A stretch of 64,000 nucleotides of DNA from an uncultured Candidatus Saccharimonadales bacterium (GCA_964467655.1 CAYXSN010000005.1:16920-80919), one strand, 5' to 3'. Positions 8,624 through 51,334 are shown, counted from the stretch's first letter. Program-made: numbers and translations. The notes: a model not told the origin generated them from the sequence alone.

Positions 8624-10009
8624 ATGGACATACTCATCAAATACCTCAAACTTGTCCGCAAACGCATCTGGCACGTCTCATCGGCTTTTCTGACTATTAG
8701 CCTGTTACTTGGTTGGCCGCACAGTGTCCAAGCCGGCATTTACTCCATCAGGGTGATCCCGTCGGTAACCCAAGCTACCACCGGTACCACATTTACGGTC
8801 TATTTACAGGCCAATATGGTGGTTGATCAATATGCCACCGGCTACATCAAAGGCGCCGTGACCTACCCAGCAGATCTGGTACAGCTACAAAGTGTAGTAG
8901 TCAATGAGTACCCGCTAGCCAGTTACACCGCCACCAGCCCCGGCCAGATTACCGTTTCATCACCAGATAAGGGGACCGGTAACGGCTACGGTGGCCAACA
9001 GAAGATTATCACGGCCACCTTCAAAGCCATCGCCGGTGGTACTGCCACCTTTTCGGTCAACAACGGCACCACCAGTGGCGTCATGATCGTCAACGGCACC
9101 AATCATGTAGTGGTGGCCGGTACCGTCAATTTGATCGGCTGCGCACCTGGTACTACCGGCACCTATCCTAATTGCACCACACCCACCCCACTACCGACCA
9201 CCACTCCTGTCACAGCAACCGCACCTAAAACAACAGTCGTACCAAGCGCCACAGCCGGCACCACCTCAGCACCCACCGGCTCAGTCACGAGCAGTACGCA
9301 AACCGCTGGCAGTCGCTACGGCCAGATCGATGCGGTACTCGACACATGCCTAACGCAAACCCTGGGAACCAACGCCTACCAGGAGTTGACAAAGCTGCAG
9401 GCTCGCCTAACCTATACGGACATCACCAAGGCCCAAACTTGTTTCGCTCAACGCAAGTCTGTCGTTCCGGCCATCATTGCGCCCGTAGAGCCCACAAAAA
9501 TAAAAGAATTGCCCGTCAAGGATAGTATTAAGGTAGAAAAAGTCGACCAAACCACCCAAAACAACACCACGATCCTCAAGTTTTCAGGCAAAGCAGCTCC
9601 CAACCAAACGGTGGTCATATACCTGTTCTCGGACCCCTTAGTACTCATAGCCAAGGCTGACCAAGACGGCACATGGTCATACCAATTGGAAGACCCAATG
9701 GAGCCAGGCAGTCACGAAGCTTACGTCACCGTCGAAGGCAGCGGTAACGAACCAGCCGTTCGATCAGCCGGCATCAACTTCGCCATTGTGGCAGCCCCCA
9801 AAACCGCCCTGAACCCTACAGGTTTAAGCCTGAATCTCGAAACAACCAGTGACTCCAAGAATTTTGTAAACCTCTATGTCGCCGGCGCAGTCATTGTTAC
9901 GCTGGGCGCCCTCGCCTTCAGCCTGAGATATATCCGCCGCCGCACATCCAAGCCGGTAACAGTGGGTATCGGCTTGACAGGATCACAGCTAACCAACGAA
10001 GACAACTAA
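8624..10009 (+). CDS. Cell-surface protein: signal/TM, cohesin-like beta domain, Thr/Pro-rich linker, C-terminal TM anchor
   Basis: N-terminal hydrophobic segment, T/P-rich low-complexity stretch, C-terminal hydrophobic helix followed by RRR. Confidence 0.5.
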   Translation: MDILIKYLKLVRKRIWHVSSAFLTISLLLGWPHSVQAGIYSIRVIPSVTQATTGTTFTVYLQANMVVDQYATGYIKGAVTYPADLVQLQSVVVNEYPLASYTATSPGQITVSSPDKGTGNGYGGQQKIITATFKAIAGGTATFSVNNGTTSGVMIVNGTNHVVVAGTVNLIGCAPGTTGTYPNCTTPTPLPTTTPVTATAPKTTVVPSATAGTTSAPTGSVTSSTQTAGSRYGQIDAVLDTCLTQTLGTNAYQELTKLQARLTYTDITKAQTCFAQRKSVVPAIIAPVEPTKIKELPVKDSIKVEKVDQTTQNNTTILKFSGKAAPNQTVVIYLFSDPLVLIAKADQDGTWSYQLEDPMEPGSHEAYVTVEGSGNEPAVRSAGINFAIVAAPKTALNPTGLSLNLETTSDSKNFVNLYVAGAVIVTLGALAFSLRYIRRRTSKPVTVGIGLTGSQLTNEDN

Positions 10010-11354: not shown

Positions 11355-11398
11355 ATCAGCTAGTGCCATAAGCCGAAGGCTCGTGCTACCATAACTTC

Positions 11399-12448
11399 AT
11401 GCCGGCTCATAAACTTACGCTGATTTCGCGGATTATCAGGCTCGATGTTGCCTTTATTGCCATAATTTTGAGTTTAAGTATACCCGGGTCACTGCAACCT
11501 CCAGCCGCCGGCCAGACAGTCAGTCCTCGTGTGCCTTTCAAGATTGTTGTTTTACCCGATACCCAGCATTACGCACTGGACTATCCTTGGCTACTCAAGC
11601 TGCAGACAGACTGGATTGCTCAAAACGCCAACGCCCAAAATATTGTGTTTGTCAGTCAAACCGGTGATATTGTGGAAAACTGGGATAACCAGCGCCAATG
11701 GCAGGCCGCCGACAGGGCCTTTGCCAGTCTCGATGGGCACATACCCTATGGTATGGCGCCAGGTAACCATGACATTGGACCCGAAGGTACCGCACCGTAT
11801 TTTAACCAGTACTTTCCGTTGCCACGTCTGTTAGCCAACCCGGCACCAGCACCGTTAAACCAGCCGTTATTGACCGGGGCCGGCAGCTTTGGCCCCAACA
11901 ACACCTACCATCTGTTTACAGCGGCAGGCAAGCAGTTTATTGCGATTAATTATGAATTTTGCCCAACCGATGATACTGTCCAGTGGCTCGACGATACCCT
12001 GTCCAAGTTCGCCAACTACGGCGCCATCATTACCACTCATTCGTTCACCAGCGCCAACGGCGATCGCGAAAGAGCCGGGCACAGTTGTCTGTTCTGGAGA
12101 GGACCAGGTCAAAACGCGGCTGTCGACATCTGGGACAGAGTAATCGCTTCTGGTCGTCACAACAATGTCCTCATGTTCTTGAGCGGCCACGACATTTGGT
12201 CGACTGCCGGAGCCGCTAGACGAACAGATATGGTGGCCGGCTACCCCGTGCACCAGATGCTGTCAAACTACCAGGAGTTTAAGCAAGGAGGCGAGGGCTA
12301 TCTCAGGATCCTGGAATTTGATACCGATAAATCACTCCTCAATGTCAGCACTTATTCACCACTAACCAAAGCCTTCAAAACCGACGATGCCAACCAATTT
12401 TCCTTATACCTTCCTCTGGGTAGCCGTTTCACTATCGGTTCAAAATAG
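11399..12448 (+). CDS. Secreted calcineurin-like metallophosphoesterase
   Basis: GDIVEN...GNHD...GHDIW metallophosphatase motifs, N-terminal signal/TM. Confidence 0.6.
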   Translation: MPAHKLTLISRIIRLDVAFIAIILSLSIPGSLQPPAAGQTVSPRVPFKIVVLPDTQHYALDYPWLLKLQTDWIAQNANAQNIVFVSQTGDIVENWDNQRQWQAADRAFASLDGHIPYGMAPGNHDIGPEGTAPYFNQYFPLPRLLANPAPAPLNQPLLTGAGSFGPNNTYHLFTAAGKQFIAINYEFCPTDDTVQWLDDTLSKFANYGAIITTHSFTSANGDRERAGHSCLFWRGPGQNAAVDIWDRVIASGRHNNVLMFLSGHDIWSTAGAARRTDMVAGYPVHQMLSNYQEFKQGGEGYLRILEFDTDKSLLNVSTYSPLTKAFKTDDANQFSLYLPLGSRFTIGSK

Positions 12449-12498
12449 GTCATTGAGCACCATAGCCTTTTCAAGCGTAAGCGTGATAGTATGAAGGT

Positions 12499-13188
12499 AT
12501 GAATCGTACCCTGCGCCGAACGACGCTTGGCGTCATGGCTCTGACCGGTCTGCCAATAATGAAAGCTGCCTGGGTGCCGACGGGCGAACAGCCTTCCAGG
12601 TCTGAGGCTCCAGCCTCAGAAACGGTATCACGCCCAAACGTCTTGGCCCAAGTGGTTCACCAGGCAGTCAGCGTGGCGACAGGCACCACCGACACCGCCA
12701 GTGCCATCACCGCCTGCACCGGTGGTTACACGGGACCGGGCTGCACCACCCCTACCCCAACCCCACGGCCCGCTACGCCCACGCCGACACCACGACCAAC
12801 TACCAATCCAGGAGGAGGTGGTACTTCGGGTGGTGGCACCGGTGGCGGGGGATTGTCGAGCGGCGGCGCCAACTGCGACGTCGCCGATCTGAGTAACCCA
12901 GTATCGGCCGGCGCCAGCTGTAGCCAAGCCAACGGTACCAGCTCAAACCTGTTTGGCGAAGGTGGCATCTTCCAGACCATCGCCAATACCCTGATCTTTC
13001 TCATCGGTGCCGTTTCGGTCATATTCCTGATTATCGGCGGCCTCCGTTATGTCATCTCTCAAGGCGATAAATCAGGCGTCGAACAAGCCAAAAACACTAT
13101 TCTCTATTCAGTCATTGGTATTGTAGTCGCTGTAGTATCATTCGCCATTGTTAGTTTCTTACTCTCGGCTTTAGCTAAATCTGGGTAA
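12499..13188 (+). CDS. T4SS-pilin-like (VirB2/TrbC-like) surface protein paralog 1 with Pro/Thr-rich linker
   Basis: Signal/TM, conserved [13 protein letters not shown] motif, PT-rich linker, C-terminal two-helix hydrophobic module [21 protein letters not shown]...[11 protein letters not shown]. Confidence 0.5.
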
Positions 13189-13195
13189 CCCTGCC

Positions 13196-14038
13196 GTGAA
13201 AAAATCAAAATCAAAATTTGATACGCTCCTCAAACCCCGAAACCGCCAGACACTCAAAAGAGTTGGTCTTGGCGCCCTAGCGCTCGGCAGTCTGCCGCTC
13301 ATCAGGACTCTAACCGAACCGCCGCCAGGTCAGAGCCCTCAAGTGTATAGCTCGTTTGCCGACAATATCGCAGCAAATATCTCAACCAGCATCAAGCAGG
13401 CGGTTGAAATCGTTCTAGGCGATACCGACAGCGCCAGTGCCATCACCGCCTGCACCGGTGGTTACGTCGGACAAGGCTGCCTAACACCCACCCCGGTACC
13501 AACTCGCACACCGACACCCAGGCCGCCTACGCCCACACCAACACCCAAGTCGGCTACTCCCACCCCCAAGCCCACCACGACACCCACCCCCAAACCGGGA
13601 CAGACACCAGCCCCCACCACCTCACCAACAGCTACACCGAATCCCGGAAACACGTCACCGACGCCTACACCACTACCAGGTTCACCGACCGAATCGCCTT
13701 CGCCAACCCTCACGCCGGGATCAGAAGACAACCAGCCTACCCCCAGCACTGAGCCAGATACTCAGGAAACACCGACGCCCGAGCCCCAACCGACACCAGA
13801 ACCCATAGTGCTTGATCGCGAGAAGACCGCCCTCGTCCAGCATGCTAGTACTGGTATTGCTGGCGGTATTACGCTCATGTCAATTATTCTCACGGTCGTG
13901 AGCAGCCTCAAGCTAACCAACCGCCAAACTACAAAGCCGGTGAAAGCATCGGCTCAAAAGCTCTTCTACTACAGCCTCGGTGGAGTGACGTTCGGCCTGG
14001 CCTCATTATGGTTTATCAACTTTATTTTTGGATCCTAA
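13196..14038 (+). CDS. T4SS-pilin-like surface protein paralog 2 with long Pro/Thr-rich linker
   Basis: GTG start 8 nt after paralog 1 stop; [13 protein letters not shown] motif; ~150 aa PT-rich region; C-terminal two hydrophobic helices. Confidence 0.5.
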
Positions 14039-14068
14039 ATTGAACCATAAGCGTGATAGAATAAACTC

Positions 14069-14725
14069 ATGAAGCGCTCAGCCAAAATTGCCACCGGCTC
14101 AATAACTGCTTTGGCGGCCTTTGGAGCCAACTACGCTCATACTACATTCACGAGCAACAGGCTACCCACGACGCCCGCTGCCGCAACCGACTCATACCAT
14201 GAAGCACTGAAAGTAATAAGCCAGGCAGTCGTCCTCGTGATCGGACCGGTTGATACTGCCAGCGCTATCACTAATACTGACGGCGGCGGCGGAACAGCAC
14301 AAGCCCCAACCCCCGCCCCACCCGCTGGCGAGCACAGTGGTACCCGCATTGACGAAAGCCCAGATTATATTCCGCCTGCACCATCGGCCAGTAATCCTTT
14401 CGTGGTAGGCACCGGCGACAACTGCGTCACCATAGCGCTACCAATCTCTGGCACCCAGAAACAATATTGCGGGGACGACGCGAACGGCGGCGTCATCATG
14501 GTGTATGCCAAAGAAATCGCCAAATTACTGTCTGGCAGTATTGGCGGCGTCATCGTGCTCATGATCGTTATCTCGGGCATCCAGTATATTTTGTCGGCCG
14601 GCAGTTCCAGCCGAGTCCAGGCGGCCAAAAGCCGGCTCACCAATGCCATCATTGCCCTCGTATTGTTCTTGATGGCGTTCGCCATCATCAACTTCATTGT
14701 CCCCGGCGGTATTATTACCGGTTAA
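14069..14725 (+). CDS. T4SS-pilin-like surface protein paralog 3
   Basis: DTASAITNT motif; C-terminal IGGVIVLMIVISGIQYILSAGSSSRVQAAKSRL...LVLFLMAFAII matches paralogs 1-2. Confidence 0.5.
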   Translation: MKRSAKIATGSITALAAFGANYAHTTFTSNRLPTTPAAATDSYHEALKVISQAVVLVIGPVDTASAITNTDGGGGTAQAPTPAPPAGEHSGTRIDESPDYIPPAPSASNPFVVGTGDNCVTIALPISGTQKQYCGDDANGGVIMVYAKEIAKLLSGSIGGVIVLMIVISGIQYILSAGSSSRVQAAKSRLTNAIIALVLFLMAFAIINFIVPGGIITG

Positions 14726-15717
14726 AGGTGGGGGATAGGAGTGAGGTCGCCATATTGGAAGGCGGCCTTAGGTTCATTGGCCACCGGAGTAGTACCAAAA
14801 CCACTGAAGACCGTCGACACATTGCCGGCTGATGAACTATACTCGGCTTTGATAACCCTTTTAGCAACAGGATCGACATAGAGAGTGTTGGTGCGGTATT
14901 GGGCGAGCCCAGCAAGTGCCCGTTGCAGGGCAACATCGGGCATACCCATATAGCCCGCCACCATCCGAGCATACGCTTCAAGGTTCGCCGAATTGTACTG
15001 TACTTCGTAGACCAAGACATCCTTGCCCTCAACAGTCGCCGATTTGACTGCTTTGTCAGAAAAGCTCAAGACCGGCTTGACCGACCACTGCTTGAGCAAA
15101 GCTTGCCGCTGGTCAGAGCTAAATTGTCCGGTCACAAACGGCCCCAGCAGCTGGAAGGCCGGTTCAGTTAACTGACTGAGTTGGACCGGGGCTGTTGCGG
15201 GTATCACCGAGTTTTGCCGGAACGCAATCCATTGACCAATCGCTTTGGCCGGTACCAAACCGCTATCAGCTGCCACATATTTGAGATAGGCGTTGCGATT
15301 GTCGGCGTAGGTCGATACCTGACTGGCCTGACCCGCCGTTGATGTGACGCGGTACGCATTAATCCGAGGATTGGTCGCGACAGCCGTATCAACCAGCAGG
15401 GTATAGGTAATACTGCCGTACGTCATATCCTGACGATACGAGGCCGTTTGCAGGTTATTGTCAACCACCGATAGGAGCGTCTCGGCATTCGTCGGACCAG
15501 TTTGCGCCGTCAATCTCATAACCAAAGCGGTGCCCGCAACTATGGCAAACACCAGGGCAACCAAACCCAACGCCAACGGCAGTTTTGACACGGGGCGCGA
15601 GGGCGGCAGCGGCGTTACATAGGTCATTCCCGGGATGGTACTGAGTGGCCCGGCAGCAGCAGGATCGACACCGCCGGCAAATTGCTCATGCTTCATAATC
15701 AACACTATAGCGGTCAA
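14722..15717 (-). CDS. Membrane-anchored hypothetical protein
   Basis: N-terminal TM (LALGLVALVFAIVAGTALV) then ~280 aa extracytoplasmic domain; stop shares TTAA with convergent pilin paralog 3. Confidence 0.45.
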   Translation of the reverse strand: MTAIVLIMKHEQFAGGVDPAAAGPLSTIPGMTYVTPLPPSRPVSKLPLALGLVALVFAIVAGTALVMRLTAQTGPTNAETLLSVVDNNLQTASYRQDMTYGSITYTLLVDTAVATNPRINAYRVTSTAGQASQVSTYADNRNAYLKYVAADSGLVPAKAIGQWIAFRQNSVIPATAPVQLSQLTEPAFQLLGPFVTGQFSSDQRQALLKQWSVKPVLSFSDKAVKSATVEGKDVLVYEVQYNSANLEAYARMVAGYMGMPDVALQRALAGLAQYRTNTLYVDPVAKRVIKAEYSSSAGNVSTVFSGFGTTPVANEPKAAFQYGDLTPIPHL

Positions 15718-16438
15718 AGCCCTGTGTTAACAAGCCATTCCAGTCATTGGTGATAATAAATGCCTCATACCCCGCCTGGCGTTCGATAAACTCTAAACCC
15801 CGCTCGACACCCATAGCAAACAGGGTAGTAGCGTATACGTCGGCTACCATGATGCTGGGACCTATCACGGTCACTGATTGCATACCAACCGGCGCCCGGC
15901 CTGTCAGGGGATCATAGATGTGCTCGCCGCGTTCAGCCGTACCTGATGTTGCGATGCCTAAGCCCGAGAGAGCCAGGCGTTTCACATTTTGATCACGGTT
16001 GAGCGGGTGCCTTACACCAATCCACCACGGCCGTCCGGACCGGCCACCACGGGTCATAATATCGCCGCCAACGTCCAAAAAGTAATTTTTGATACCCCGC
16101 TCATCAAGCAGCTGGGAAGCTTTTTCAATCGCCCAACCTTTGACGAGCCCTGAAGGATCGATCAGGCCGTCTGGCCGACGGATATTGAAGTAACCCGCTG
16201 TAGCCGACTTTGCCTTCTCAGACAGCTCAAAAACCTCTTTCATGGGCACACTGTAGTCATCTGGTGCAAGTTCGCCGCGGTTAATAGCCGAGATCTCACT
16301 CGAAGCTTTATAGGTACTAAACCGCTTATCGACTGCTCGGAGTAGCGCAAAAACATCCCTGATATGCTCACCAGACCGCGGTCCGCCCACCATCACCTTG
16401 ATCGGCATGCCCATAATAGCGACTTCCCGGGTCTTCAT
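15686..16438 (-). CDS. apbE: FAD:protein FMN transferase (ApbE family)
   Basis: VAIMGMPIKV...YFNIRRPDGLID...GWAIEKA...ALSGLGIATSGTAERG ApbE motifs; start taken at internal ATG (MKTR). Confidence 0.7.
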   Translation of the reverse strand: MKTREVAIMGMPIKVMVGGPRSGEHIRDVFALLRAVDKRFSTYKASSEISAINRGELAPDDYSVPMKEVFELSEKAKSATAGYFNIRRPDGLIDPSGLVKGWAIEKASQLLDERGIKNYFLDVGGDIMTRGGRSGRPWWIGVRHPLNRDQNVKRLALSGLGIATSGTAERGEHIYDPLTGRAPVGMQSVTVIGPSIMVADVYATTLFAMGVERGLEFIERQAGYEAFIITNDWNGLLTQGFDRYSVDYEA

Positions 16439-16451
16439 GCTATCTATTATA

Positions 16452-18023
16452 ATGAGCGGCATGGCCGATACCACCCTTCTTTCTAGTACTCAGCGGCTTG
16501 TAATCAACCTGTCTGCCCCCAGCCCCCAGCCAGACCAGGACGCCAACGCCCAACTGATCCACGTATCAGATATCGGGGCGGGCTTTTATTTGGCGTACGA
16601 GCAACTTAGGAACATTGCCGAATACCGTGAGCACCACTTATTACTAAGGGGGGCAATCGGCCGCTATTTAAGCCGTTACGTCAGGCTCGAGAGTCCCGAA
16701 CCCTTCGCCCAAGACCTGGTGGTCGAGCTCACTCAGGCAGGTTACCTCGCCAATGACAGTATCAGTCGCGGAACCGCAAACCAAATTGACAATATCACGA
16801 CCCAAGCAAGTCAGCTCCTCTTCGCCATGCGGGCATGCGCCGATGAACTTGAGGCCACCGGTTGGGTCAGGCAATTCGTCGCCATGAGCATTGAAGCTAC
16901 CCTGGCGCCCGACACCAAAACGGCTGCCATCATGCAATTTGCTTACGAGCACTATCTTACCAGTGTTGATAAGTCGAGCCTGGCGCCTCAAGCACCCGAA
17001 ACGATATACCGTGTTGCCCTTACCTGCGCCATCCAGAGAGTCATTTTTAAATCCGATACTGCTACCACCAGGTACTACCTGCTCAAAGCCGCCTTTGGCG
17101 AACCCGACCCCCAACAAGCGCAGGCTATCGTCGACCTCTGCCGCCTCGTCGACGACTATTACCAACACCCCCTCACCAACAAACTAGCAAGCTTTATTAA
17201 CCGCTACGGCGCACCCATGCGCATTGTGCACAAACTCGTCATGGAAACAACCAACGCACCGGCGCTACTGGCAAACCGTCAGTCGACGCTCGCTAAGGTT
17301 AAGCTGGTGTGCACTGAGGCCTATGCTCACAACCAGAAACAAATTTCTACACGTATCATACGATCAATTCTATTCATTTTGATCACCAAAACCCTCATAG
17401 GTGTATCCATCGAAATACCCTATGATATGGCTGTCTACGGGCATATCTTGTGGCAACCACTCGTAATTAATATTTTGTTTCCACCGCTCTATATGGCCCT
17501 GTTGAGCCTATCGATTACCGCGCCAGGTAACCGTAATACTGAAGTTATTAGCGGCTACGTCGATAGACTCTTCTACGTAGGCCCAATTGAGCCCCTCACG
17601 TACACCTTGCGCAAACGACGATTCTCGCCAGGACTGTCCGCATCGTTTAACACGGTTTACGCGTTCGGTTTCATGGGCTCCCTCGCACTCATGGTCTGGG
17701 CGCTCTACCAGTTGGGCTTCAATGTAGTCAACGGCGGCATCTTTTTCTTCTTCTTTTCGGCAGTGAGTTTTTTGGCGTGGCGCATCAGGCGCACATCGGC
17801 CGAGTTACAAATACTCGACCGCAATCAAGGTTTAATCCAGGCGTTGGTTGATTTTCTTTCGGCACCCTTTATTGCTATTGGACACTGGATTTCAGACCGG
17901 TACGCTCGAGCCAACCTCGTAACACTCATTTTAGATCTGGCGATTGAGCTACCCTTCAAGACAATTATTAGGTTAGCCCGACAGTGGCTCAGATTCCTAA
18001 GCGATAAGCAGGATGAGTTATAG
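16452..18023 (+). CDS. Large hypothetical membrane protein (soluble N-terminal domain, multi-TM C-terminal half)
   Basis: ~520 aa ORF divergent from apbE; hydrophobic helices from ~residue 340; start chosen at first ATG (track lists upstream TTG). Confidence 0.45.
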   Translation: MSGMADTTLLSSTQRLVINLSAPSPQPDQDANAQLIHVSDIGAGFYLAYEQLRNIAEYREHHLLLRGAIGRYLSRYVRLESPEPFAQDLVVELTQAGYLANDSISRGTANQIDNITTQASQLLFAMRACADELEATGWVRQFVAMSIEATLAPDTKTAAIMQFAYEHYLTSVDKSSLAPQAPETIYRVALTCAIQRVIFKSDTATTRYYLLKAAFGEPDPQQAQAIVDLCRLVDDYYQHPLTNKLASFINRYGAPMRIVHKLVMETTNAPALLANRQSTLAKVKLVCTEAYAHNQKQISTRIIRSILFILITKTLIGVSIEIPYDMAVYGHILWQPLVINILFPPLYMALLSLSITAPGNRNTEVISGYVDRLFYVGPIEPLTYTLRKRRFSPGLSASFNTVYAFGFMGSLALMVWALYQLGFNVVNGGIFFFFFSAVSFLAWRIRRTSAELQILDRNQGLIQALVDFLSAPFIAIGHWISDRYARANLVTLILDLAIELPFKTIIRLARQWLRFLSDKQDEL

Positions 18024-18562: not shown

Positions 18563-18852
18563 TCTAGTTCTAATACATTCTAACAAATTTAACGATGCCA
18601 TAATTTGGAGAAATGTCCATGGACGGTTCTAACCTTATCAGGCATTATAGGCTCACGACCGCATGAGGAAAGGGTTTTCCCGCCCATTTTAGGCCTCAAC
18701 CTGGTTCACAAGCTCTTTAGACGTAAAGGCGAACCATCTGGTCTACCGGCATGAATTGTGTGGTTGTAAGGGTGAGTCCATTCGTTCCAAGAGTGCCTTG
18801 AGTACTCTTGGAACCAAAACCATTTTGATACTAAATATGATATGATCGCCAC

Positions 18853-19413
18853 ATGACCCAGCCTGCGCTGCCCAACTACGCATTTATTGATAGTCAAAAT
18901 CTCAACCTCTCGATCCAGAATCTTGGTTGGAAGCTTGATTTTGCCCGGTTTCGGGCCTATTTACGTGATACCCATAACGTATCAAGGGCTCTGATTTTTA
19001 TTGGATATATGGAAGAACAAGCCGATCTCTATCATCATCTGGAGCTAGCCGGATATGAGCTAATTTACAAACCAACCCTCAGCTACAAAGATGGGTCAAC
19101 CAAAGGCAATGTCGACGTTGAAATGGTCATGCATACCATCTTGGAAATGCCGAGCTACCACCAAGCCGTCATCGTCACAGGAGACGGCGACTTTTATAGC
19201 TTGATAAATTATTTACTCGCCCAAGGCAAGCTAGCCAAGGTCATCGTGCCCAACCAATTCCGCTATTCCACACTACTCAAACAATTTGATCCCAGCTTGC
19301 TCGTATTCGTCTCGGAGATGCGCCGAAATCTCGAGTATACCCACAAACGCAAAGGGCCAAAAATAACAGCTGAGACGATACCTAAAATTGCTTCACAGGT
19401 TCCGGAGCCATAG
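18853..19413 (+). CDS. NYN-domain (LabA-like) protein
   Basis: NYAFIDSQNL...VIVTGDGDFYSLINYL matches NYN/LabA PIN-like nuclease fold. Confidence 0.6.
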   Translation: MTQPALPNYAFIDSQNLNLSIQNLGWKLDFARFRAYLRDTHNVSRALIFIGYMEEQADLYHHLELAGYELIYKPTLSYKDGSTKGNVDVEMVMHTILEMPSYHQAVIVTGDGDFYSLINYLLAQGKLAKVIVPNQFRYSTLLKQFDPSLLVFVSEMRRNLEYTHKRKGPKITAETIPKIASQVPEP

Positions 19414-44419: not shown

Positions 44420-44607
44420 CGACCCAAACCGGATCGTTATGAGCATAAGAACATTGGTACCGCTGGTCGTCAGATGGCTTTGTTACCTGCCTGCGACAAC
44501 AGTCTAAATAATCACATTTGAAGACCGTCGGCGCATATGGTATAGTCCGCCTGTCTCAATAGAGATTTCAGCCTGGCATAAGCCACCAACTATTCCGAGG
44601 TGACATC

Positions 44608-45531
44608 ATGCAAGACGCCACTACCGCCGCCGTTCGCGCGACCATCGAGCCCAGCGTTGCAGCCTACCTGTTCGGCAGCACCGGAGCCCTGGGGGTTGCT
44701 CTGACGGCCGCGTCGCGATCACTTCACATCCTGGCATCCACCGGGCAGAAGCTGGGCGACTTGCCATATTCAGACATGTCCCACCAGCTCCAGCTCGTGC
44801 GTTCCAGCGGCCTGCCATGCGTATGGGTCCCGGCACAGGGCTATGAGCTGGACGCCGACGAGCGCGACGCACGGTACCAGATGGACAGCCGGACACGATC
44901 TCCCAAGACGCCCGATCCGGCCGATCGAGCAGTCAGTGGCGGTCGCTCATACGCGAACACGTATCCGTTCTGGCTGCCCATCGCCGGGCAACCGGCCATC
45001 TTGGTCAGGAAGGACGATCTGGCTTATTGGAACTGGCCTCTGTATCTGGGCCTCAATGACCTCCCCGTCGGCCTGTTCGGCTTCAGCGTCAACGTGGCGC
45101 TCCAGACCGATACCGGCAATTGCGAGGTCGACTGCAACCAGATCGCCCAGGTCCTGGCCGCCATCGGCCTCGGCGACTACACCGGCGATCAGCTGGCCGC
45201 CCACATCGCTAGTGACGTCAACGACCTGCCGCCAGATTTCCGGCTCAGCGACCAGCACAGCTCTGCACGCGTTCACCTGAACGCTTGGGACGGCACTCGC
45301 CGTCCGCTCTGGGCGCGCGACATCAACAATAACCTCGTGCGCAACGGCTCGGTGCTGGTGCAACCAGCTGGTGCCACGGAGGAGTGGCGGCTGCCGCGCT
45401 TCTTGCGCTTCACGGTGAGTCGAACGCAAGACTCGTTCGGCTGGCCGCACGGCATCATCTACGAGCCCGAGGAGCGGGCCAGTCTGTACGCCGTCGCTGA
45501 CAGGATCGCAGCAGCATTCAACGCCAGCTGA
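44608..45531 (+). CDS. Hypothetical protein encoded in a ~65% GC segment (probable horizontally acquired gene)
   Basis: 307-aa ORF with strongly GC-biased third codon positions; local GC well above the ~50% window average; spurious long ORFs on other frames typical of high-GC DNA. Confidence 0.5.
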   Translation: MQDATTAAVRATIEPSVAAYLFGSTGALGVALTAASRSLHILASTGQKLGDLPYSDMSHQLQLVRSSGLPCVWVPAQGYELDADERDARYQMDSRTRSPKTPDPADRAVSGGRSYANTYPFWLPIAGQPAILVRKDDLAYWNWPLYLGLNDLPVGLFGFSVNVALQTDTGNCEVDCNQIAQVLAAIGLGDYTGDQLAAHIASDVNDLPPDFRLSDQHSSARVHLNAWDGTRRPLWARDINNNLVRNGSVLVQPAGATEEWRLPRFLRFTVSRTQDSFGWPHGIIYEPEERASLYAVADRIAAAFNAS

Positions 45532-45550
45532 GACGACCGGCTCATCGGCC

Positions 45551-45584
45551 GTCAGGGGCTTCCGGATGTCCGGAAGCCCCTGAC
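45551..45584 (+). terminator. Perfect 16-bp GC-rich hairpin (gtcaggggcttccgga-tg-tccggaagcccctgac) after the high-GC ORF
   Basis: Exact inverted repeat read from sequence; no T tract (style typical of high-GC genomes). Confidence 0.5.
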
Positions 45585-45633
45585 GCCTAAGGCTCTGATA
45601 TCATACCGATATGGCATCCACCACAAAGCAAAT

Positions 45634-45888
45634 CTACCGATAAACTTCCCGGCGATTGCCAATCTTAATAATTTCGACCACTAGTTGCTCATCTGTAATT
45701 GAGTATATAACCCGATAGTCGCCAATCCTGATCCGCCACGCTTCCACTCCGATCATTTTCTTCACACCATGAGGCCTAGGATCATGCGCTAGGGAATCAA
45801 TCAATTCCGAGACCTGCTTTCGAGCAGCAATAGGCAACTTGCGTAACTCCTTAGTGGCACTAGTCCGAAATATTACCGAATAAACCAT
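45634..45888 (-). CDS. relE: RelE/ParE family toxin
   Basis: 84 aa; ...IRIGDYRVIYSITDEQLVVEIIKIGNRREVYR C-terminus typical of RelE/ParE; 3-nt gap to upstream antitoxin. Confidence 0.7.
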   Translation of the reverse strand: MVYSVIFRTSATKELRKLPIAARKQVSELIDSLAHDPRPHGVKKMIGVEAWRIRIGDYRVIYSITDEQLVVEIIKIGNRREVYR

Positions 45889-45891
45889 CCG

Positions 45892-46146
45892 CTAAAGCAG
45901 CCCGTCTCGCACTAAATCGGCCTTGACTTTGTCCCACGCAAGCAACGGCTCAGCCTTGCGCTCCTCTACAGTCGCTGCATCCTCGGCATCTTCTAGAAGT
46001 TCAGCAAGTTGATCATTAATCAGCTCCGAGATGGATTTATTTTGCTCAACCGCTTCGTGTTGCAAATATTTTTTGACGTAAGGATTTAAATAAACAGTTG
46101 TTCGCTCTGTGAGGGTAGCCATAGTGCTCTCCTTAATTGATTTCAT
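45892..46146 (-). CDS. Antitoxin (ribbon-helix-helix/CopG-like) of RelE/ParE module
   Basis: 84 aa, acidic C-terminus, immediately upstream of relE on same strand. Confidence 0.55.
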   Translation of the reverse strand: MKSIKESTMATLTERTTVYLNPYVKKYLQHEAVEQNKSISELINDQLAELLEDAEDAATVEERKAEPLLAWDKVKADLVRDGLL

Positions 46147-46156
46147 TTTATCTTAA

Positions 46157-46180
46157 CAACGTCATAACGTCAAGACGTCG
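46157..46180. promoter_or_regulatory. TA operon operator-like repeats (aacgtcat aacgtcaagacgtcg)
   Basis: Direct/inverted ACGTC repeats just upstream of antitoxin start; near-copy present at 43218-43240. Confidence 0.35.
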
Positions 46181-46519
46181 TTAGAAGTGTCATCCGCGCC
46201 AACGGGTATATCAATGCTGGTTTGATAAGGTCTACCTATGAAATCGATAACTGTATGATGTAATCGATACTGGAGCACTCTCATGCCGGCTTCCTCAACT
46301 GCTTTTTACGTGAGGCTTCTTATCGTCGAAAAAAAACAGATGGATTGAAGCCAATACACCTGCCGCTTCCCGAAATGATTCGGAAGACTTCTTGCTGAGG
46401 CTGGATGACTCGGCGGTGTAGACCTCAACAAATATGTTCACAAGTCTTCGGAAAGATCAGCACTCGCGAAAAATAGTAATTATAGCTTTCATAGGATTAC
46501 CTATAAGCCAATGAGTCGG

Positions 46520-46556
46520 TGCTAGCCGAACCGGCGACGTTCGAGTCCTCCGGTGA
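46520..46556 (+). other. tRNA 3'-end-like fragment (GTTCGAGTCC T-loop-like box), possible att site remnant
   Basis: cgacGTTCGAGTCCtccggtgatca has canonical T-loop sequence but 5' T-stem/acceptor partner absent, so not a full tRNA. Confidence 0.25.
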
Positions 46557-46560
46557 TCAT

Positions 46561-46599
46561 ATTAAAATAACCCAACCGAGAGGTTGGGTTATTTTAATG
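46561..46599. repeat. Perfect 17-bp inverted repeat hairpin attaaaataacccaacc-gaga-ggttgggttattttaat
   Basis: Exact palindrome read from sequence, adjacent to tRNA-like fragment in a 560-bp non-coding gap. Confidence 0.5.
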
Positions 46600-46704
46600 G
46601 TACACCATAGTCACAGATGTTCGAACCAGAATTAGGGAAGAAAAACTAGGAGCACCGCTCAACAACCTATAGCCCACTAAGCTCCGGTATCCGATACTAG
46701 TGCT

Positions 46705-47421
46705 ATGGAACTATTCAATACCGGAGGTGACCGCAAAACATCACCCATGCAATTGCTGCGTCAAGGACGAGTGTGGCTTGGACTGTACGACTATGCTGTC
46801 AAAGACCGTGATGTGATTGCGGCACTCCCGGCCATTTATTGCTTATTTTCTGCTTTGGAACTTTACCTCAAAGCGTATATCGTCCTCATAGACACTGATT
46901 ACGCCGACACCACAAAACTCAGAAAACTTGAGCACAACTTCAGCAAGCTCTATGAGCAAATCCAAAGACTAGCACCGCCCAAATTGGCTGTGCTGATTAA
47001 AAAACAGCTCCATCATTACAAGCTTATGGGGCTAAAGCTCGACACGCTTAAATACCCCGAAAATCAAAACATTTGGTCCATTGACCACGGCCTTGTCGAA
47101 GGAAAGCATACCCTGAAGGATATATTCGATACCATCGAGGCAGAGATTGCCGAGCAGGAAGATGCTTGGATTAACACCGTCTACCCGAGAGAAATCCACA
47201 TCGGATTTATGTTTCAGACCGATTTTCAAGGAGACCCGCTGACGCTATCCAAGGATGAAAAGCATAAGCTTGCAAATACTTGCTCCAATTGCTTACCCCA
47301 GGGAGTCATCGTAACGCAAGAATACAATTTCCCTTGGCAACGGGAGCCCCAGCCACCCAAAACCTGCCTGATATGTGGGGAGTGGTTTATCCCCGACATT
47401 AATCATCGACCCTGGAGCTAG
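46705..47421 (+). CDS. Hypothetical protein, possibly HEPN-like
   Basis: Alpha-helical; LELYLKAYIV...KLRKLEHNF resembles HEPN R-x(3-4)-H region (weak). Confidence 0.3.
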   Translation: MELFNTGGDRKTSPMQLLRQGRVWLGLYDYAVKDRDVIAALPAIYCLFSALELYLKAYIVLIDTDYADTTKLRKLEHNFSKLYEQIQRLAPPKLAVLIKKQLHHYKLMGLKLDTLKYPENQNIWSIDHGLVEGKHTLKDIFDTIEAEIAEQEDAWINTVYPREIHIGFMFQTDFQGDPLTLSKDEKHKLANTCSNCLPQGVIVTQEYNFPWQREPQPPKTCLICGEWFIPDINHRPWS

Positions 47422-47447
47422 CCCACCCCACCACTCAGCTCACTATA
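47422..47447 (+). promoter_or_regulatory. Copy 1 of conserved 20-nt motif CCACCAnnnAGCTCACTAT (T7-promoter-like core)
   Basis: cccaccccaccactcAGCTCACTATa, 30 nt upstream of ATG 47477. Confidence 0.4.
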
Positions 47448-47476
47448 AATATCGAAACCAGGGTAGAATCGTAGGT

Positions 47477-48610: not shown

Positions 48611-48684
48611 GCTCATGGACTTGGAAATGTGGTAGAGGCACCGAAACCCGTCGGCTCGTAATGCGGACATTGCGGCCTGCTACC

Positions 48685-49017
48685 CTAGTCCTCAAACCAA
48701 TAGTGGTGCATCTGCCCCATGAACTCTTTTGTTATAGGAAACCCCGAAGCATCACCAATAACCGAATCAATTTCGCATGAGGGGCATAGCGCCGTTTTAC
48801 CATTATCAACCCAATCATCAATTTCATCCGGCGTAAAAATCTTGAGACAGTAAAAGCACCCGCACACCTTACTCGCACCAAGTTCAACACGGTGCTGCGA
48901 AGAATGTTCATGCGCTTTTACGATTTCCGGCGGCATTGATGCTTTGGCTCGCTCTAAAGCCGCAACAACCTCAGTCATTTCATCTTTTGGCTTGCCTTTA
49001 GGTCCAAATGGTCTCAT
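48685..49017 (-). CDS. Small Cys-rich (zinc-ribbon-like) protein
   Basis: CGCFYC...CPSC cysteine pairs, 110 aa. Confidence 0.4.
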   Translation of the reverse strand: MRPFGPKGKPKDEMTEVVAALERAKASMPPEIVKAHEHSSQHRVELGASKVCGCFYCLKIFTPDEIDDWVDNGKTALCPSCEIDSVIGDASGFPITKEFMGQMHHYWFED

Positions 49018-49045
49018 GGATATATGATATCAAATTGCCCACTAG

Positions 49046-49070: not shown

Positions 49071-49097
49071 TCTGGCTAACCATGAGATAATTCAAGC

Positions 49098-51291: not shown

Positions 51292-51334
51292 TTTATTTTC
51301 CCTCCTACTAGGAAATCGAACGGTAAGGGCACAC

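What the first reader, a model, noticed from the sequence alone, without database searches (positions are those of the whole stretch)
12499..14725. Tandem triplet of paralogous pilin-like surface proteins with hypervariable Pro/Thr-rich linkers
Three consecutive genes share the same layout: an N-terminal signal or TM segment, a conserved DTASAIT motif (two with a C-x8-C pair, ACTGGYxGxGC), a Pro/Thr-rich mucin-like linker of very different length (~40 to ~150 aa), and a C-terminal two-helix hydrophobic module. The module is built around IGG-[LI]-[RQ]-Y-[VI]-[IL]-S and resembles VirB2/TrbC-type conjugative pilins, and the CPR-type 'T4SS pilin' family. Two of them carry a shared upstream TGATAG(T/A)AT extended -10-like box. 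Such variable surface arrays are candidate host-attachment or antigenic-variation structures in episymbiotic bacteria.
Basis: partly seen in the sequence, partly recalled or inferred. Interest (0 to 1): 0.65.

Follow-up and report, generated by a model that had tools for sequence, protein, structure and literature searches.

The report
Satellite T4SS pilin genes with stalks
Three neighbouring genes of an uncultured Saccharimonadia (CPR) bacterium encode VirB2-like type IV secretion pilins, a kind of gene array already described in these bacteria, but here each carries an unusual long leader and a Pro/Thr-rich stalk that the same lineage also attaches to non-pilin surface proteins.

Summary
The three ORFs are real, at the stated coordinates: A 12499-13188, B 13196-14038, C 14069-14725. 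A and C pass Pfam's threshold for PF18895 (T4SS_pilin). B has the same layout, but its core is only weakly pilin-like (hhalign probability 55-70%).

Tandem VirB2-like pilin arrays are already published for Patescibacteria, so the kind is known. The particulars here are:
- The triplet is a satellite array. There is no T4SS machinery in the window. In a syntenic complete relative (CP064960.1), the VirB4/VirB3/VirB6 cluster with four short pilins lies about 450 kb away.
- A is a paralogue of the last canonical pilin (71-78% identity in the core).
- All three carry a rare 66-82 aa leader: signal, helix, D-T-A-S-A-I-T, then in A and B a Cys loop and a Pro/Thr stalk. It gave 5 hits among 1.84 billion representatives. 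The same leader also heads non-pilin secreted proteins.
- A conserved leaderless-type promoter box precedes these genes.

The linkers are not hypervariable: orthologues keep them under purifying selection, and there are no switching repeats.

Most likely these are accessory pilins or membrane stalk proteins serving the distant T4SS.

One speculative lead: the leader motif resembles the ApbE flavinylation site, and an ApbE gene is a conserved neighbour.

The parts
12479..12492 (+). Promoter-like box of gene A. AAGCGTGATAGTAT is an extended -10 (TGaTAGTAT) ending 6 nt before the ATG, which implies a leaderless mRNA.
   Evidence: direct repeat D3 with the box of C. No Shine-Dalgarno sequence is present.
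12499..13188 (+). Gene A, 229 aa. It is a VirB2-like T4SS pilin with an N-terminal extension. It is a paralogue of the last pilin of canonical T4SS-linked arrays.
   Evidence: PF18895 scored 34.7 bits against a threshold of 26.6. The core is 60-78% identical to more than 100 Saccharimonadia pilins of about 145 aa. It scored 158.7 bits against L020_p4. Core omega is 0.037.
12499..12705 (+). Leader module of A (residues 1-69). It consists of a basic n-region, a hydrophobic segment (9-24), a spacer, an amphipathic helix (47-61), and D65-T-A-S-A69 followed by I-T.
   Evidence: (helix 48-60). Across all module copies, position -1 is always A and position -3 is A/V/T.
12715..12744 (+). C-x8-C loop of A (C73-C82, [10 protein letters not shown]).
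   Evidence: It is conserved in the A and B orthologues and in non-pilin module proteins.
12745..12873 (+). Linker of A (residues 83-125). It starts Pro/Thr-rich and then becomes Gly-rich.
   Evidence: pLDDT below 50, disordered. The orthologue in CP064960.1 carries 18 more residues of PTPxPRPVT repeats.
12874..12921 (+). Second Cys pair of A (C126-C141). This is the conserved pre-helix loop of this pilin subfamily.
   Evidence: C126 is invariant and C141 nearly invariant among 95 family members. AF2 predicts a small helix at 134-141.
12961..13185 (+). Two-helix pilin core of A (residues 155-229), with the basic loop [19 protein letters not shown].
   Evidence: AF2 predicts helices 157-186 and 191-228 with pLDDT 80-87. 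Hydropathy agrees. A keeps all 22 invariant family residues.
12681..12758 (+). Gene-conversion tract, copy in A. It is a 78-nt direct repeat with 13417-13494, and its central 39 nt differ at only one base.
   Evidence: repeat D1, 82% identity. In one search, 38 of 39 nt and 13 of 13 third codon positions are identical between A and B. Between orthologues, third-position identity is about 31%.
13196..14038 (+). Gene B, 280 aa, GTG start 7 nt after the stop of A. It has the same leader and Cys loop, an approximately 110-aa Pro/Thr stalk, and a divergent two-helix C-terminus.
   Evidence: The ORF is conserved at full length in CP064960.1 (284 aa) and in a Logan contig (275 aa) at 65-67% identity. 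dN is about 0.28 with dS saturated. There is no Pfam hit. hhalign to pilin profiles gave 70% and 55% probability, in register.
13196..13441 (+). Leader module of B (residues 1-82), ending D78-S-A-S-A82 followed by I-T.
13451..13480 (+). C-x8-C loop of B (C86-C95).
13481..13810 (+). Pro/Thr-rich stalk of B (residues 96-205).
   Evidence: B contains 45 Pro and 47 Thr. Only degenerate DNA repeats are present: 27 bp x 2.1 copies at 83% match, and 12 bp x 3.2 copies at 73%. The first half is almost invariant among orthologues.
13817..14035 (+). Divergent two-helix C-terminal module of B (residues 208-280).
   Evidence: Hydropathy segments at 217-241 and 260-279. A low-confidence AF2 model gives helices 208-240 and 253-279. 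hhalign aligns 223-280 with the helix-loop-helix of the pilin profiles.
14049..14062 (+). Promoter-like box of gene C. AAGCGTGATAGAAT is an extended -10 ending 6 nt before the ATG.
   Evidence: The longer motif ATAAGCRTGWTA is found in related loci only upstream of module-bearing genes.
14069..14725 (+). Gene C, 218 aa. It is a VirB2-like T4SS pilin of the subtype that comes first in the canonical arrays of two other Patescibacteria contigs. It carries the same leader.
   Evidence: PF18895 scored 33.8 bits against 26.6. It scored 90.1 bits against L009_p1 and 67.2 bits against L010_p1. Homologues P0005-P0019 are shown.
14069..14266 (+). Leader module of C (residues 1-66), ending D62-T-A-S-A66 followed by I-T. 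Here the module helix (46-60) is the most hydrophobic N-terminal segment.
   Evidence: 11-residue hydropathy 2.43 at residue 49.
14423..14470 (+). Cys pair of C (C119-C134, CVTIALPISGTQKQYC). This is the conserved pre-helix loop of the C subtype.
   Evidence: (alignment with 17 homologues).
14513..14722 (+). Two-helix pilin core of C (residues 149-218).
14722..16474 (-). Conserved neighbours on the opposite strand: an unknown membrane-anchored 324-331 aa protein (14722-15717) and a signal-less ApbE-family FMN transferase (15686-16474). They are listed because the block follows the extended pilins in all five related loci.

Best explanation
A, B and C form a satellite array of VirB2-like type IV secretion pilin paralogues in a Saccharimonadia (Patescibacteria/CPR) genome.

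Shown:
- A and C are members of the T4SS_pilin family.
- A is a paralogue of the last pilin of the canonical T4SS-linked array.
- C belongs to the subtype that comes first in the canonical arrays of two other Patescibacteria contigs.
- B is a strongly diverged third copy.
- All three are conserved and under purifying selection.
- A syntenic complete relative encodes the T4SS machinery (VirB4-, VirB3-, VirB6- and TraC-like proteins) plus four short pilins about 450 kb from its copy of this triplet.
- Each of the three proteins carries a rare lineage-specific N-terminal module. In the same lineage this module also heads non-pilin secreted proteins.

Inferred:
- A and C are each transcribed from their own leaderless-type extended -10 promoter. 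B is read by coupling to A.
- The proteins insert through Sec with the N-terminal part outside and the basic inter-helix loop inside.
- The unusually long leader (66-82 aa) is removed at the conserved (A/V/T)-x-A site by signal peptidase I.
- This leaves a two-helix pilin core whose new N-terminus is a flexible, probably glycosylated, Pro/Thr-rich stalk. In A and B the stalk is capped by a 10-residue disulfide loop.
- These stalked pilins are then used by the distant T4SS as accessory subunits that decorate or terminate a VirB2-type filament. Alternatively they stay in the membrane at its base. Either way they put a differentiated, stable set of surfaces at the contact with the host cell.
For: Family membership:
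- PF18895 is above its gathering score for A and C.
- A keeps all 22 invariant residues of 95 family members. Its core is 60-78% identical to Saccharimonadia proteins that NCBI already names 'pilin'.
- AF2 gives a confident helix-loop-helix hairpin for A, pLDDT 80-87. Hydropathy and the basic loop fit an N-out, loop-in topology.

Link to the T4SS:
- The closest short relatives of A and C lie in arrays of 4-6 pilin genes divergently adjacent to TrbL_3/VirB6, PrgI/VirB3, TraC-like and VirB4-like genes.
- The syntenic genome CP064960.1 has such a locus, with VirB4 found by tblastn at 99% identity to the L020 copy. It also has the orthologous triplet.
- In another relative, a VirD4-like coupling protein gene lies directly upstream of the A/C pair.

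Real, constrained genes:
- The triplet or pair is syntenic in five lineages.
- dS is saturated, dN is 0.08-0.35, and omega is 0.04-0.12 where it can be computed.

Leader:
- The motif sits at a constant position (residues 62-78).
- Position -1 is always Ala, position -3 is A/V/T, and a Gly or Pro lies at -6 to -4.
- Short family members instead have an AxA site directly before the Cys loop.
- One module-bearing protein is anchored by a dockerin, so the module is not needed as an anchor there.

Promoter.

Literature: arrays of 2-11 VirB2-like pilins are reported in 383 Patescibacteria assemblies, and the pilin array of S. epibionticum is essential (PMC12102498, PMC10633639, PMC12857230).
Against: - No T4SS gene lies within about 20 kb upstream or about 49 kb downstream on this contig. 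The machinery is shown only in a relative whose synonymous sites are saturated relative to the window, not in this organism.
- B fails every family profile, and its hhalign probability is only 55-70%.
- Foldseek and PDB sequence searches gave no significant match to solved VirB2/TraA pilins. The best conjugative-pilus hit had E = 5.9.
- Cleavage at the AxA site is not demonstrated. In A and B the helix before it is amphipathic (mean hydropathy 0.7-1.0), and the first hydrophobic segment is the stronger signal-like element.
- The conserved Asp at -5, Ser/Thr at -2 and Thr/Ser at +2 are not explained by signal peptidase specificity.
- No pilus has been seen in any Patescibacterium (PMC12857230). 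A 55-120 aa N-terminal appendage might not be compatible with VirB2-type helical packing.
Confidence: 0.6

Rival explanations
1. T4SS-independent stalked surface proteins. On this reading the pilin hairpin has been co-opted merely as a membrane anchor for mucin-like stalks, which act as spacers or adhesins in the envelope. The proteins would belong functionally with the other module-bearing surface proteins (cohesin/dockerin, Ig-like, CBM-like) rather than with the secretion machine.
For: - The array lies far from any T4SS gene.
- Its promoter box and leader are shared with non-pilin secreted proteins.
- B has lost the family's G-G-(L/I)-(R/Q)-Y-x-x-S-x-G-D signature.
- The conserved neighbours (331 aa, ApbE, 541 aa) have no counterpart in canonical T4SS loci.
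Against: - A plain anchor would not need to keep all 22 family-invariant residues, nor evolve at omega 0.037 in the core.
- A is 71-78% identical to the T4SS-linked pilin p4 of the relative.
- In one relative, a VirD4-like gene directly precedes the pair.
Confidence: 0.2
2. The conserved D-x-x-[S/T]-A-[I/A]-T motif is not (or not only) a peptidase site. Instead it would be a flavinylation site for the neighbouring ApbE-family FMN transferase. The pilins and the other module-bearing proteins would then carry covalent FMN on the last Thr.
For: - The ApbE recognition motif is D-x-x-[S/T]-G-A-[S/T]. It is seven residues long, and G->A or A->V substitutions each still allow about 50% flavinylation (PMC12052999).
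- Several module copies read D-T-A-[S/T]-A-A-T.
- An ApbE gene lies two genes downstream in all five syntenic loci.
- Among 43 proteins of the window, only A, B and C match the relaxed motif (3 observed vs 0.77 expected). No canonical motif exists.
- The two other conserved neighbours have no such motif.
- Asp at position 1, Ser/Thr at position 4 and Thr/Ser at position 7 are conserved beyond what a peptidase site needs.
- New ApbE substrates were previously found in exactly this way (PMC8238504).
Against: - The G-A dipeptide that is near-universal in known substrates is A-I in the window's three proteins.
- Position 6 varies across copies (I, A, E, D, S, V).
- All five ApbE orthologues start at MGMP... 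with no signal peptide or lipobox, so the enzyme is predicted cytosolic, whereas the motif is predicted to be outside.
- Module-bearing genes also occur away from ApbE.
- The adjacency is seen only in related, syntenic genomes, so these are not independent observations.
Confidence: 0.1
3. Antigenic-variation or phase-variation locus. The paralogues and their linkers would vary rapidly between strains to change the exposed surface.
For: - Tandem divergent paralogues share only 34-35% identity.
- There is a short gene-conversion tract between A and B.
- VirB2 paralogue arrays of Bartonella and Anaplasma have been discussed in these terms (PMC12102498).
Against: - Each paralogue has a clear orthologue with the same linker type in related genomes.
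- dN is far below the saturated dS, and the linker evolves no faster than the rest.
- Only degenerate repeats are present. There are no significant inverted repeats and no recombinase gene nearby.
- The converted tract lies in the conserved leader, not in the exposed variable part.
Confidence: 0.05
4. B is a decaying pseudogene or a chance open frame in Pro/Thr-coding, GC-rich DNA, and only A and C are functional.
For: - The gene caller on the source assembly skipped it.
- It has no family hit.
- It starts with GTG and has no Shine-Dalgarno sequence.
- Its AF2 model has a mean pLDDT of 43.
Against: - A frame of 275-284 codons is open in three genomes whose synonymous sites are saturated.
- The N-terminal module and the C-terminal helices are the best conserved parts.
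- The start position is conserved, 5-7 nt after the stop of A.
- The hhalign match is in register with the helix-loop-helix of the pilin profiles.
Confidence: 0.05

Closest known systems
VirB2-like pilin arrays of Patescibacteria (S. epibionticum ML1 T4SS locus SEML1_0006-0019; TM7x 'Sec-secreted array'; 441 arrays described by Quinonero-Coronel et al. 2025)
   Same: - The Pfam family is the same (PF18895).
- The genes are tandem, sequence-divergent paralogues (34-35% identity here; a mean of 25% in the published arrays).
- The class is the same (Saccharimonadia).
- A and C are orthologous or paralogous to members of such arrays.
   Different: - Here the genes are not beside virB4. They form a second, satellite set in addition to a canonical four-gene array.
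- The proteins are 218-280 aa instead of about 90-180 aa, because a shared long leader plus a Pro/Thr stalk has been added.
- One member (B) has lost the family signature.
- I found no mention of such extensions in the papers I read.
Conjugative pilins of diderm T4SS: VirB2 (Agrobacterium), TrbC (RP4), TraA (F)
   Same: - Small two-helix hairpin with a basic loop.
- A weak TrbC/VirB2 profile match for A (E = 0.0076).
- Unusually long leader peptides removed by leader peptidase (36-51 aa in TrbC, VirB2 and TraA; this is from my own knowledge, not checked here).
- The N-terminus faces outward.
   Different: - The PF04956 score is below threshold (16.9 vs 27.9 bits).
- There is no significant structural or sequence match to solved pilins.
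- The host is a monoderm.
- There is no evidence of cyclisation or acetylation enzymes.
- The mature protein would carry a 50-120 aa stalk that those pilins lack.
VirB2 paralogue families of Bartonella, Anaplasma and Rickettsia
   Same: Several divergent virB2 copies per genome, some lying away from the machinery genes (as cited in PMC12102498).
   Different: Those are discussed as immune-evasion variants in pathogens of animals. Here the orthologues are stable and there is no sign of diversifying selection.
Mbov_0395 family pilin-like conjugal transfer protein of Mycoplasma ICEs (NCBIfam NF045849)
   Same: Weak similarity over the two-helix core: 26.2 bits for A and 19.1 bits for C.
   Different: Both scores are below the 40-bit cut-off. 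There is no ICE context in the window.
ApbE substrates (FMN-binding domain, DUF2271, DUF3570)
   Same: A seven-residue D-x-x-[S/T]-x-x-[S/T] motif lies next to a conserved apbE gene.
   Different: The G-A dipeptide is replaced by A-I or A-A. There is no FMN_bind, DUF2271 or DUF3570 profile hit. The ApbE lacks an export signal.

Membership tests
Pfam PF18895 T4SS_pilin (VirB2-like pilins of CPR and monoderms) | Profile score at or above the curated gathering score (26.6 bits). | tested here: met
   A scored 34.7 bits and C scored 33.8 bits. B had no hit even at E <= 0.5, whether as the whole protein or as its C-terminal 85 aa. The feature is therefore met for A and C only.
Pfam PF18895 T4SS_pilin (VirB2-like pilins of CPR and monoderms) | For B specifically: homology of the C-terminal module to the pilin core. 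| tested here: inconclusive
   hhalign of the three B orthologues against 95 A-type pilins gave probability 70%, E = 3.9e-5, 53 columns. Against a broad 26-member pilin profile it gave probability 55%, E = 1.2e-4, 56 columns. Both alignments are in register with helix-loop-helix. phmmer against 15 array pilins gave no more than 13 bits.
Pfam PF18895 T4SS_pilin (VirB2-like pilins of CPR and monoderms) | Two hydrophobic helices joined by a short basic loop, preceded by an export signal. | tested here: met
   AF2 of A predicts helices 157-186 and 191-228 at pLDDT 80-87. Hydropathy shows two segments in each of A, B and C, and each has a basic N-terminus followed by a hydrophobic segment. The model of B is low confidence.
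Pfam PF18895 T4SS_pilin (VirB2-like pilins of CPR and monoderms) | Genomic association with T4SS machinery (VirB4, VirB3/PrgI, VirB6/TrbL). | tested here: not met
   The feature is not met locally. There are no Pfam or tblastn hits to these proteins in the 64-kb window or in the 8.5 kb beyond its start. At genome level it is met only by proxy. The syntenic relative CP064960.1 has the full cluster about 450 kb from its triplet, and another relative has a VirD4-like gene directly upstream.
Pfam PF18895 T4SS_pilin (VirB2-like pilins of CPR and monoderms) | Polymerisation into, or function with, a T4SS filament. | not testable with these tools
   No experimental data exist. According to PMC12857230, even for S. 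epibionticum the pilus is still hypothetical.
Pfam PF04956 TrbC/VirB2 pilin | Profile score at or above the gathering score (27.9 bits). | tested here: not met
   A scored 16.9 bits (E = 0.0076). B and C had no hit.
Pfam PF04956 TrbC/VirB2 pilin | Structural match to solved conjugative pilins. | tested here: inconclusive
   Foldseek against the PDB gave a best E of 1.7, to unrelated hairpins. The archaeal conjugation pilus 8dfu ranked 6th with E = 5.9. A profile search of PDB sequences found no pilin. Short helical hairpins carry little signal.
Antigenic or phase-variable surface array | Fast, diversifying change of the exposed part between close relatives. | tested here: not met
   dN is 0.08-0.35 with dS saturated, and omega is 0.04-0.12. 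The dN of B's linker equals that of its flanks, and the first half of B's linker is nearly invariant.
Antigenic or phase-variable surface array | A switching device: perfect tandem repeats, invertible segments or silent cassettes. | tested here: not met
   Only degenerate repeats are present, at 73-83% match. The single inverted pair is weak: 17 nt, 82% complementary. The one conversion tract lies in the conserved leader.
ApbE (FAD:protein FMN transferase) substrates | The motif D-x-x-[S/T]-G-A-[S/T]. | tested here: not met
   The window's proteins read D-(T/S)-A-S-A-I-T. Relatives read D-T-A-[S/T]-A-A-T. Only the relaxed pattern matches. The motif definition comes from PMC12052999.
ApbE (FAD:protein FMN transferase) substrates | The enzyme and the motif lie in the same compartment. 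| tested here: not met
   All five ApbE orthologues lack a signal peptide or lipobox. The motif lies after the export signal, in a region with disulfide pairs and a mucin-like linker, which is predicted to be outside. This rests on prediction only.
ApbE (FAD:protein FMN transferase) substrates | Covalent FMN on the terminal Thr. | not testable with these tools
   This needs co-expression and a fluorescence or mass-spectrometry assay.

The most novel reading that the evidence does not exclude
The conserved D-x-x-[S/T]-A-[I/A]-T motif would be a new, non-canonical target of the adjacent signal-less ApbE flavin transferase. The motif is shared by these three pilins and by a handful of other secreted proteins of this lineage.

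If so, this Saccharimonadia lineage would export FMN-tagged T4SS-type pilins and surface proteins. That would be a new class of ApbE substrate. It would also be a redox-active appendage at the host interface, in a phylum thought to be nearly devoid of extracytosolic flavinylation.

A less radical version, also not excluded, is that a mobile 'leaderless promoter + long leader + Cys loop + Pro/Thr stalk' cassette is grafted by recombination onto different cargo, producing 'hairy' VirB2-type filaments.
Probability: 0.08. Interest if true: 0.85.

Novelty: new variant of a known kind. Interest (0 to 1): 0.42.

Why it matters
The T4SS and its pilin array are essential for the epibiotic growth of the one genetically tractable Saccharibacterium, and their role is unknown (PMC10633639, PMC11665869). 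This locus shows three things:
- Some Saccharimonadia keep a second, separately transcribed set of pilins away from the machine.
- These pilins have been fused to a leader-and-stalk module that the lineage uses for other surface proteins.
- One copy has drifted far from the family signature.

This gives concrete candidates for accessory or tip subunits of the hypothetical pilus, and for how it is adapted to the cell envelope or to the host. It also supplies a small, sharply defined leader motif next to an orphan ApbE gene that can be tested cheaply in E. coli.

In addition, the locus shows that standard gene callers can miss the Pro/Thr-rich member. For genome annotation, the result itself is ordinary: A and C are 'T4SS pilin' genes.

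Tried and rejected
- Word-indexed homologue search with an 11-sequence alignment of the leader module: no hit at E <= 1, not even the query's own proteins. The result is uninformative and cost the third search.
It was repeated with 5 close sequences.
- Foldseek of the A model against the PDB, and a PDB sequence-profile search: nothing significant.
- AF2 of B with two sequences: mean pLDDT 43, so I did not use it for a fold search.
- Search for the accession of the sister genome in the literature and in the supplement of the T4SS survey: nothing found.
- T4SS genes in the window: none by Pfam on all ORFs of at least 150 aa, and none by tblastn with six machinery proteins.
- The conserved neighbours (331 aa, 541 aa, 349-aa phosphoesterase) as hidden T4SS parts: they have no relatives in three canonical T4SS loci and no Pfam family.
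- Tat export, considered because A has 'RR': B, C and several relatives have KR, and the rest of the Tat consensus is missing. I did not pursue this.
- Near-match of the promoter box at 39954: no start codon follows it, so I treat it as chance.
- Slipped-strand or invertible switching: rejected.
- A resemblance of D-[ST]-[A/V/T] to the Bacteroidota O-glycosylation sequon (recalled from memory): three residues are too little to weigh, and the phylum is wrong. Not tested.
- tRNA and Rfam scans of the window: nothing found.

Full report
**What is there**

The window holds three consecutive + strand ORFs at exactly the reported limits:
- A, 12499-13188, 229 aa.
- B, 13196-14038, 280 aa, GTG start.
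- C, 14069-14725, 218 aa.

They are 34-35% identical overall and share one layout:
- a basic N-terminus followed by a moderately hydrophobic segment;
- a variable spacer of about 30 aa;
- a helix, QAVxVxxG;
- the motif D-(T/S)-A-S-A-I-T;
- in A and B, a C-x8-C loop (CTGGYxGxGC);
- a Pro-rich linker;
- two C-terminal hydrophobic helices.

The linker is about 42 aa in A (half of it Gly-rich) and about 110 aa in B. In C it is about 25 aa and is followed by a conserved Cys-pair domain.

The source contig is ENA ERZ27309396 k141_254224 (82.8 kb). The gene caller used there missed B, calling an antisense 95-aa ORF and a 76-aa C-terminal piece instead.

**Family**

A and C pass the curated threshold of Pfam PF18895 (T4SS_pilin): 34.7 and 33.8 bits against 26.6. 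In both cases the match covers the C-terminal hairpin. Other profiles are sub-threshold:
- TrbC/VirB2 (PF04956): 16.9 bits against 27.9, for A only.
- The Mycoplasma ICE pilin-like NCBIfam model: 26.2 and 19.1 bits against 40.

The last 100 residues or so of A are 60-78% identical to more than a hundred proteins of about 140-150 aa. Several of these are already named 'pilin [Candidatus Saccharimonadia/Saccharimonas]' by NCBI. A keeps all 22 invariant residues of a 95-member alignment.

AlphaFold2 with that alignment gives a confident helix-loop-helix (157-186 and 191-228, pLDDT 80-87). It also gives a small helix in the Cys loop, a weak helix at 48-60, and disorder elsewhere. Foldseek and a PDB sequence-profile search found nothing significant. 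The fold is therefore compatible with VirB2 but not diagnostic.

B has no Pfam hit, even for its C-terminal 85 aa at E <= 0.5. Profile-profile comparison of its three orthologues with pilin profiles gives 70% and 55% probability. Both alignments are in register across helix, loop and helix. I treat B as a strongly diverged pilin paralogue. It has lost the G-G-(L/I)-(R/Q)-Y-x-x-S-x-G-D signature.

**Context and relatives**

No T4SS machinery gene lies in the window or in the 8.5 kb beyond its start. This was checked by Pfam on all ORFs of at least 150 aa, and by tblastn with six machinery proteins.

The triplet is syntenic in the complete 1.32-Mb genome CP064960.1, an activated-sludge MAG labelled 'bacterium'. 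There the proteins are 247, 284 and 189 aa. The last is truncated, and the assembly contains many split genes. The triplet is also syntenic in Logan contigs.

More distant relatives have an A+C pair in the same place. In GCA_036518915.1 (Candidatus Saccharimonadia), a 722-aa VirD4-like coupling protein lies directly upstream of the pair. It passes the thresholds of TrwB_AAD_bind, TraG-D_C and T4SS-DNA_transf.

In all five lineages the pilins are followed by the same block:
- an unknown membrane protein of about 330 aa;
- an ApbE-family gene on the opposite strand;
- an unknown polytopic protein of about 520-540 aa.

Short relatives of C (P0013, P0018) and of A (P0024) lie in arrays of 4-6 PF18895 genes. 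These arrays are divergently adjacent to TrbL_3/VirB6-like, PrgI/VirB3-like, TraC-like and VirB4-like genes. A matches the last gene of such arrays and C the first.

The 90%-identity cluster of P0024 contains IPG36_01950 of CP064960.1. Its locus at 293-313 kb carries four short pilins (115, 105, 109 and 144 aa) and the machinery. This includes a VirB4 that tblastn recovers at 99% identity to the L020 copy, frameshifted in the assembly.

That relative therefore has seven VirB2-like genes: four beside the machine and three extended ones about 450 kb away. The core of A is 71-78% identical to the canonical p4. By inference, the window's triplet is a satellite array of a T4SS encoded elsewhere.

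**The N-terminal module**

Typical family members have a signal peptide of 25-45 aa ending in AxA directly before the Cys loop. A, B and C instead carry a conserved module of about 66-82 aa. This module is much more alike between the paralogues than their cores are.

The module is rare:
- A profile of the three window modules found only 5 of 1.84 billion representative proteins: A, the B orthologue, C, P0141 and P0142.
- A pattern scan of 185,579 species genomes found it only in CP064960.1, at the triplet and at one further locus.

The additional carriers are not pilins:
- L018 3860-4765 and P0141 have the module, a Pro/Thr linker and a CBM-like beta domain. In P0141 a dockerin follows. These genes lie next to cohesin and dockerin genes.
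- L015 6996-8405 has the module, a Pro/Thr linker, Ig-like repeats and a C-terminal anchor.

The module is therefore a lineage-specific head for several exported proteins. A similar Cys loop plus Pro/Thr linker also occurs inside the window's Big_13 surface protein, as GCAPGTTGTYPNCTTPTP.

Within the window, A and B share 38 of 39 nt across [13 protein letters not shown], with 13 of 13 third positions identical. Between orthologues, third-position identity is about 31%. This points to a recent short gene-conversion tract.

**Promoter**

It also precedes the phosphoesterase gene (11399) and the NYN gene (18853), and those starts lack a Shine-Dalgarno sequence. This suggests leaderless transcripts.

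The longer form, ATAAGCRTGWTA, occurs 8 times in the fetched loci. Each time it sits about 10 nt before the start of a module-bearing gene, including the non-pilin L015 gene and the single pilin P0011. Several of these 8 matches are the same or orthologous sites, so they are not independent.

B starts 7 nt after the stop of A, with no box and no Shine-Dalgarno sequence. It is probably read by coupling.

**Variation**

Between the window and its two closest relatives, synonymous sites are saturated, dN is 0.08-0.35, and omega is 0.04-0.12 where it can be computed. The dN of B's linker equals that of its flanks, and its first half is nearly invariant. Length differences are small repeat-unit indels. 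DNA repeats are degenerate, and no meaningful inverted repeats exist. The linkers differ between paralogues but are stable within each. 'Hypervariable' and 'antigenic variation' are not supported.

**Mechanism**

Shown:
- family membership of A and C;
- the paralogy relations;
- purifying selection;
- presence of the T4SS in a syntenic relative;
- the shared leader module and promoter box.

Inferred:
- Sec-dependent insertion with the N-terminal part outside and the basic loop inside, based on the charges and the Cys pairs.
- Removal of the long leader at the conserved site. Position -1 is always Ala, position -3 is A/V/T, and a Gly or Pro lies at -6 to -4. In C, the helix before the site is the most hydrophobic N-terminal segment. 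Long leaders are typical of TraA, TrbC and VirB2 (from my own knowledge).
- A mature pilin core carrying a flexible stalk, capped in A and B by a disulfide loop. The T4SS would use it as an accessory subunit, or it would be retained at the membrane.

Weak points:
- In A and B the pre-site helix is amphipathic.
- The conserved Asp at -5, Ser/Thr at -2 and Thr/Ser at +2 are not explained by peptidase specificity.
- No pilus has yet been seen in Patescibacteria (PMC12857230).

**A lead that competes for the same motif**

The ApbE recognition motif is D-x-x-[S/T]-G-A-[S/T]. G->A or A->V substitutions each still allow about 50% flavinylation (PMC12052999). The module reads D-T-A-S-A-I-T here and D-T-A-[S/T]-A-A-T in relatives.

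In favour:
- An ApbE gene is the conserved neighbour.
- No protein in the window has a canonical motif.
- Only A, B and C match a relaxed motif, 3 against 0.77 expected.
- The other conserved neighbours have no such motif.

Against:
- All five ApbE orthologues lack any export signal.
- Position 6 of the motif is variable.
- The adjacency comes from related, syntenic genomes.

I rate this at about 0.1 and list the decisive assay.

**Comparison with what is known**

Tandem arrays of 2-11 divergent VirB2-like pilins are described for 383 Patescibacteria assemblies, above all Saccharimonadia and Microgenomatia. The pilin gene is near virB4 in only 1135 of 1948 assemblies. The array of S. epibionticum is essential (PMC12102498, PMC10633639, PMC12857230).

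The finding is therefore a member of a known kind. As far as I could search, the following are not described:
- the satellite arrangement in addition to a canonical array;
- the long shared leader and Pro/Thr stalk fused to pilin cores;
- the use of the same leader and promoter box on non-pilin cargo;
- the degenerate middle copy.

I file it as a new variant of a known kind, of moderate interest.

**Limits**

- The T4SS is shown in a relative, not in this organism.
- Cleavage, glycosylation, flavinylation and filament assembly are all untested.
- One homologue search failed for technical reasons.
- The model of B is of low confidence.

Noticed in passing
window 15686-16474 (-), with 14722-15717 (-) and 16398-18023 (+): An ApbE-family FMN transferase gene with no signal peptide sits between two unknown membrane proteins (about 330 aa and about 540 aa). 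The block follows the extended pilins in all five related loci. No canonical flavinylation motif exists in the window, so the enzyme looks like an 'orphan' ApbE in a CPR genome.
   Followed up: partly
window 11384-11401, 12484-12501, 14054-14071, 18838-18855, 45596-45613 (+); 49015-49032 (-): The pattern TGnTAnnAT followed by exactly 6 nt and ATG occurs 6 times against 0.44 expected. Several first genes of operons have a -10 hexamer 6-7 nt before the ATG and no Shine-Dalgarno sequence, while internal genes do have one. This suggests that leaderless mRNAs are common in this organism.
   Followed up: partly
window 52292-60124 (-): A giant 2610-aa ORF with three PA14 domains, FG-GAP repeats, RHS repeats and DUF7948. 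It is a candidate adhesin or toxin-delivery protein.
   Followed up: no
window about 44600-51800: This stretch has lower G+C (0.43-0.49 against about 0.52). It holds seven ORFs of 170-411 aa with no Pfam family, so it may be a mobile or defence island.
   Followed up: no
window 8624-10009 (+): A 461-aa surface protein with a Big_13 domain and a C-terminal anchor. It contains an internal Cys loop plus Pro/Thr linker (GCAPGTTGTYPNCTTPTPLP) that resembles the junction in pilins A and B.
   Followed up: partly
window 13462-13749 (-) and 13808-14038 (+): In the source assembly, the gene caller replaced gene B with an antisense 95-aa ORF and a 76-aa fragment. Pro/Thr-rich genes of this kind are likely to be under-annotated in metagenomes.
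   Followed up: yes
L018 14-1515 and 2259-3863 (CP064960.1, 819-827 kb): Cohesin-domain and dockerin-bearing surface proteins (a cellulosome-like docking pair) are encoded in a Saccharimonadia genome, next to a module-bearing CBM-like protein.
   Followed up: partly
L005 10001-10570 and elsewhere in L005/L024 (CP064960.1): Many genes of this 'complete' long-read MAG are split or truncated: pilin C, NYN, His_Phos_1, SNase, VirB4 and the 1076-aa T4SS protein. This looks like residual indel errors rather than real pseudogenes.
   Followed up: partly
window 14322-14420 (gene C residues 85-117): A conserved segment, GEHSGTRI...PDYIPPAP...NPF, lies between the leader and the Cys loop of C. It is shared with the C orthologues of L005, L006 and L016 and has no known family.
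   Followed up: no
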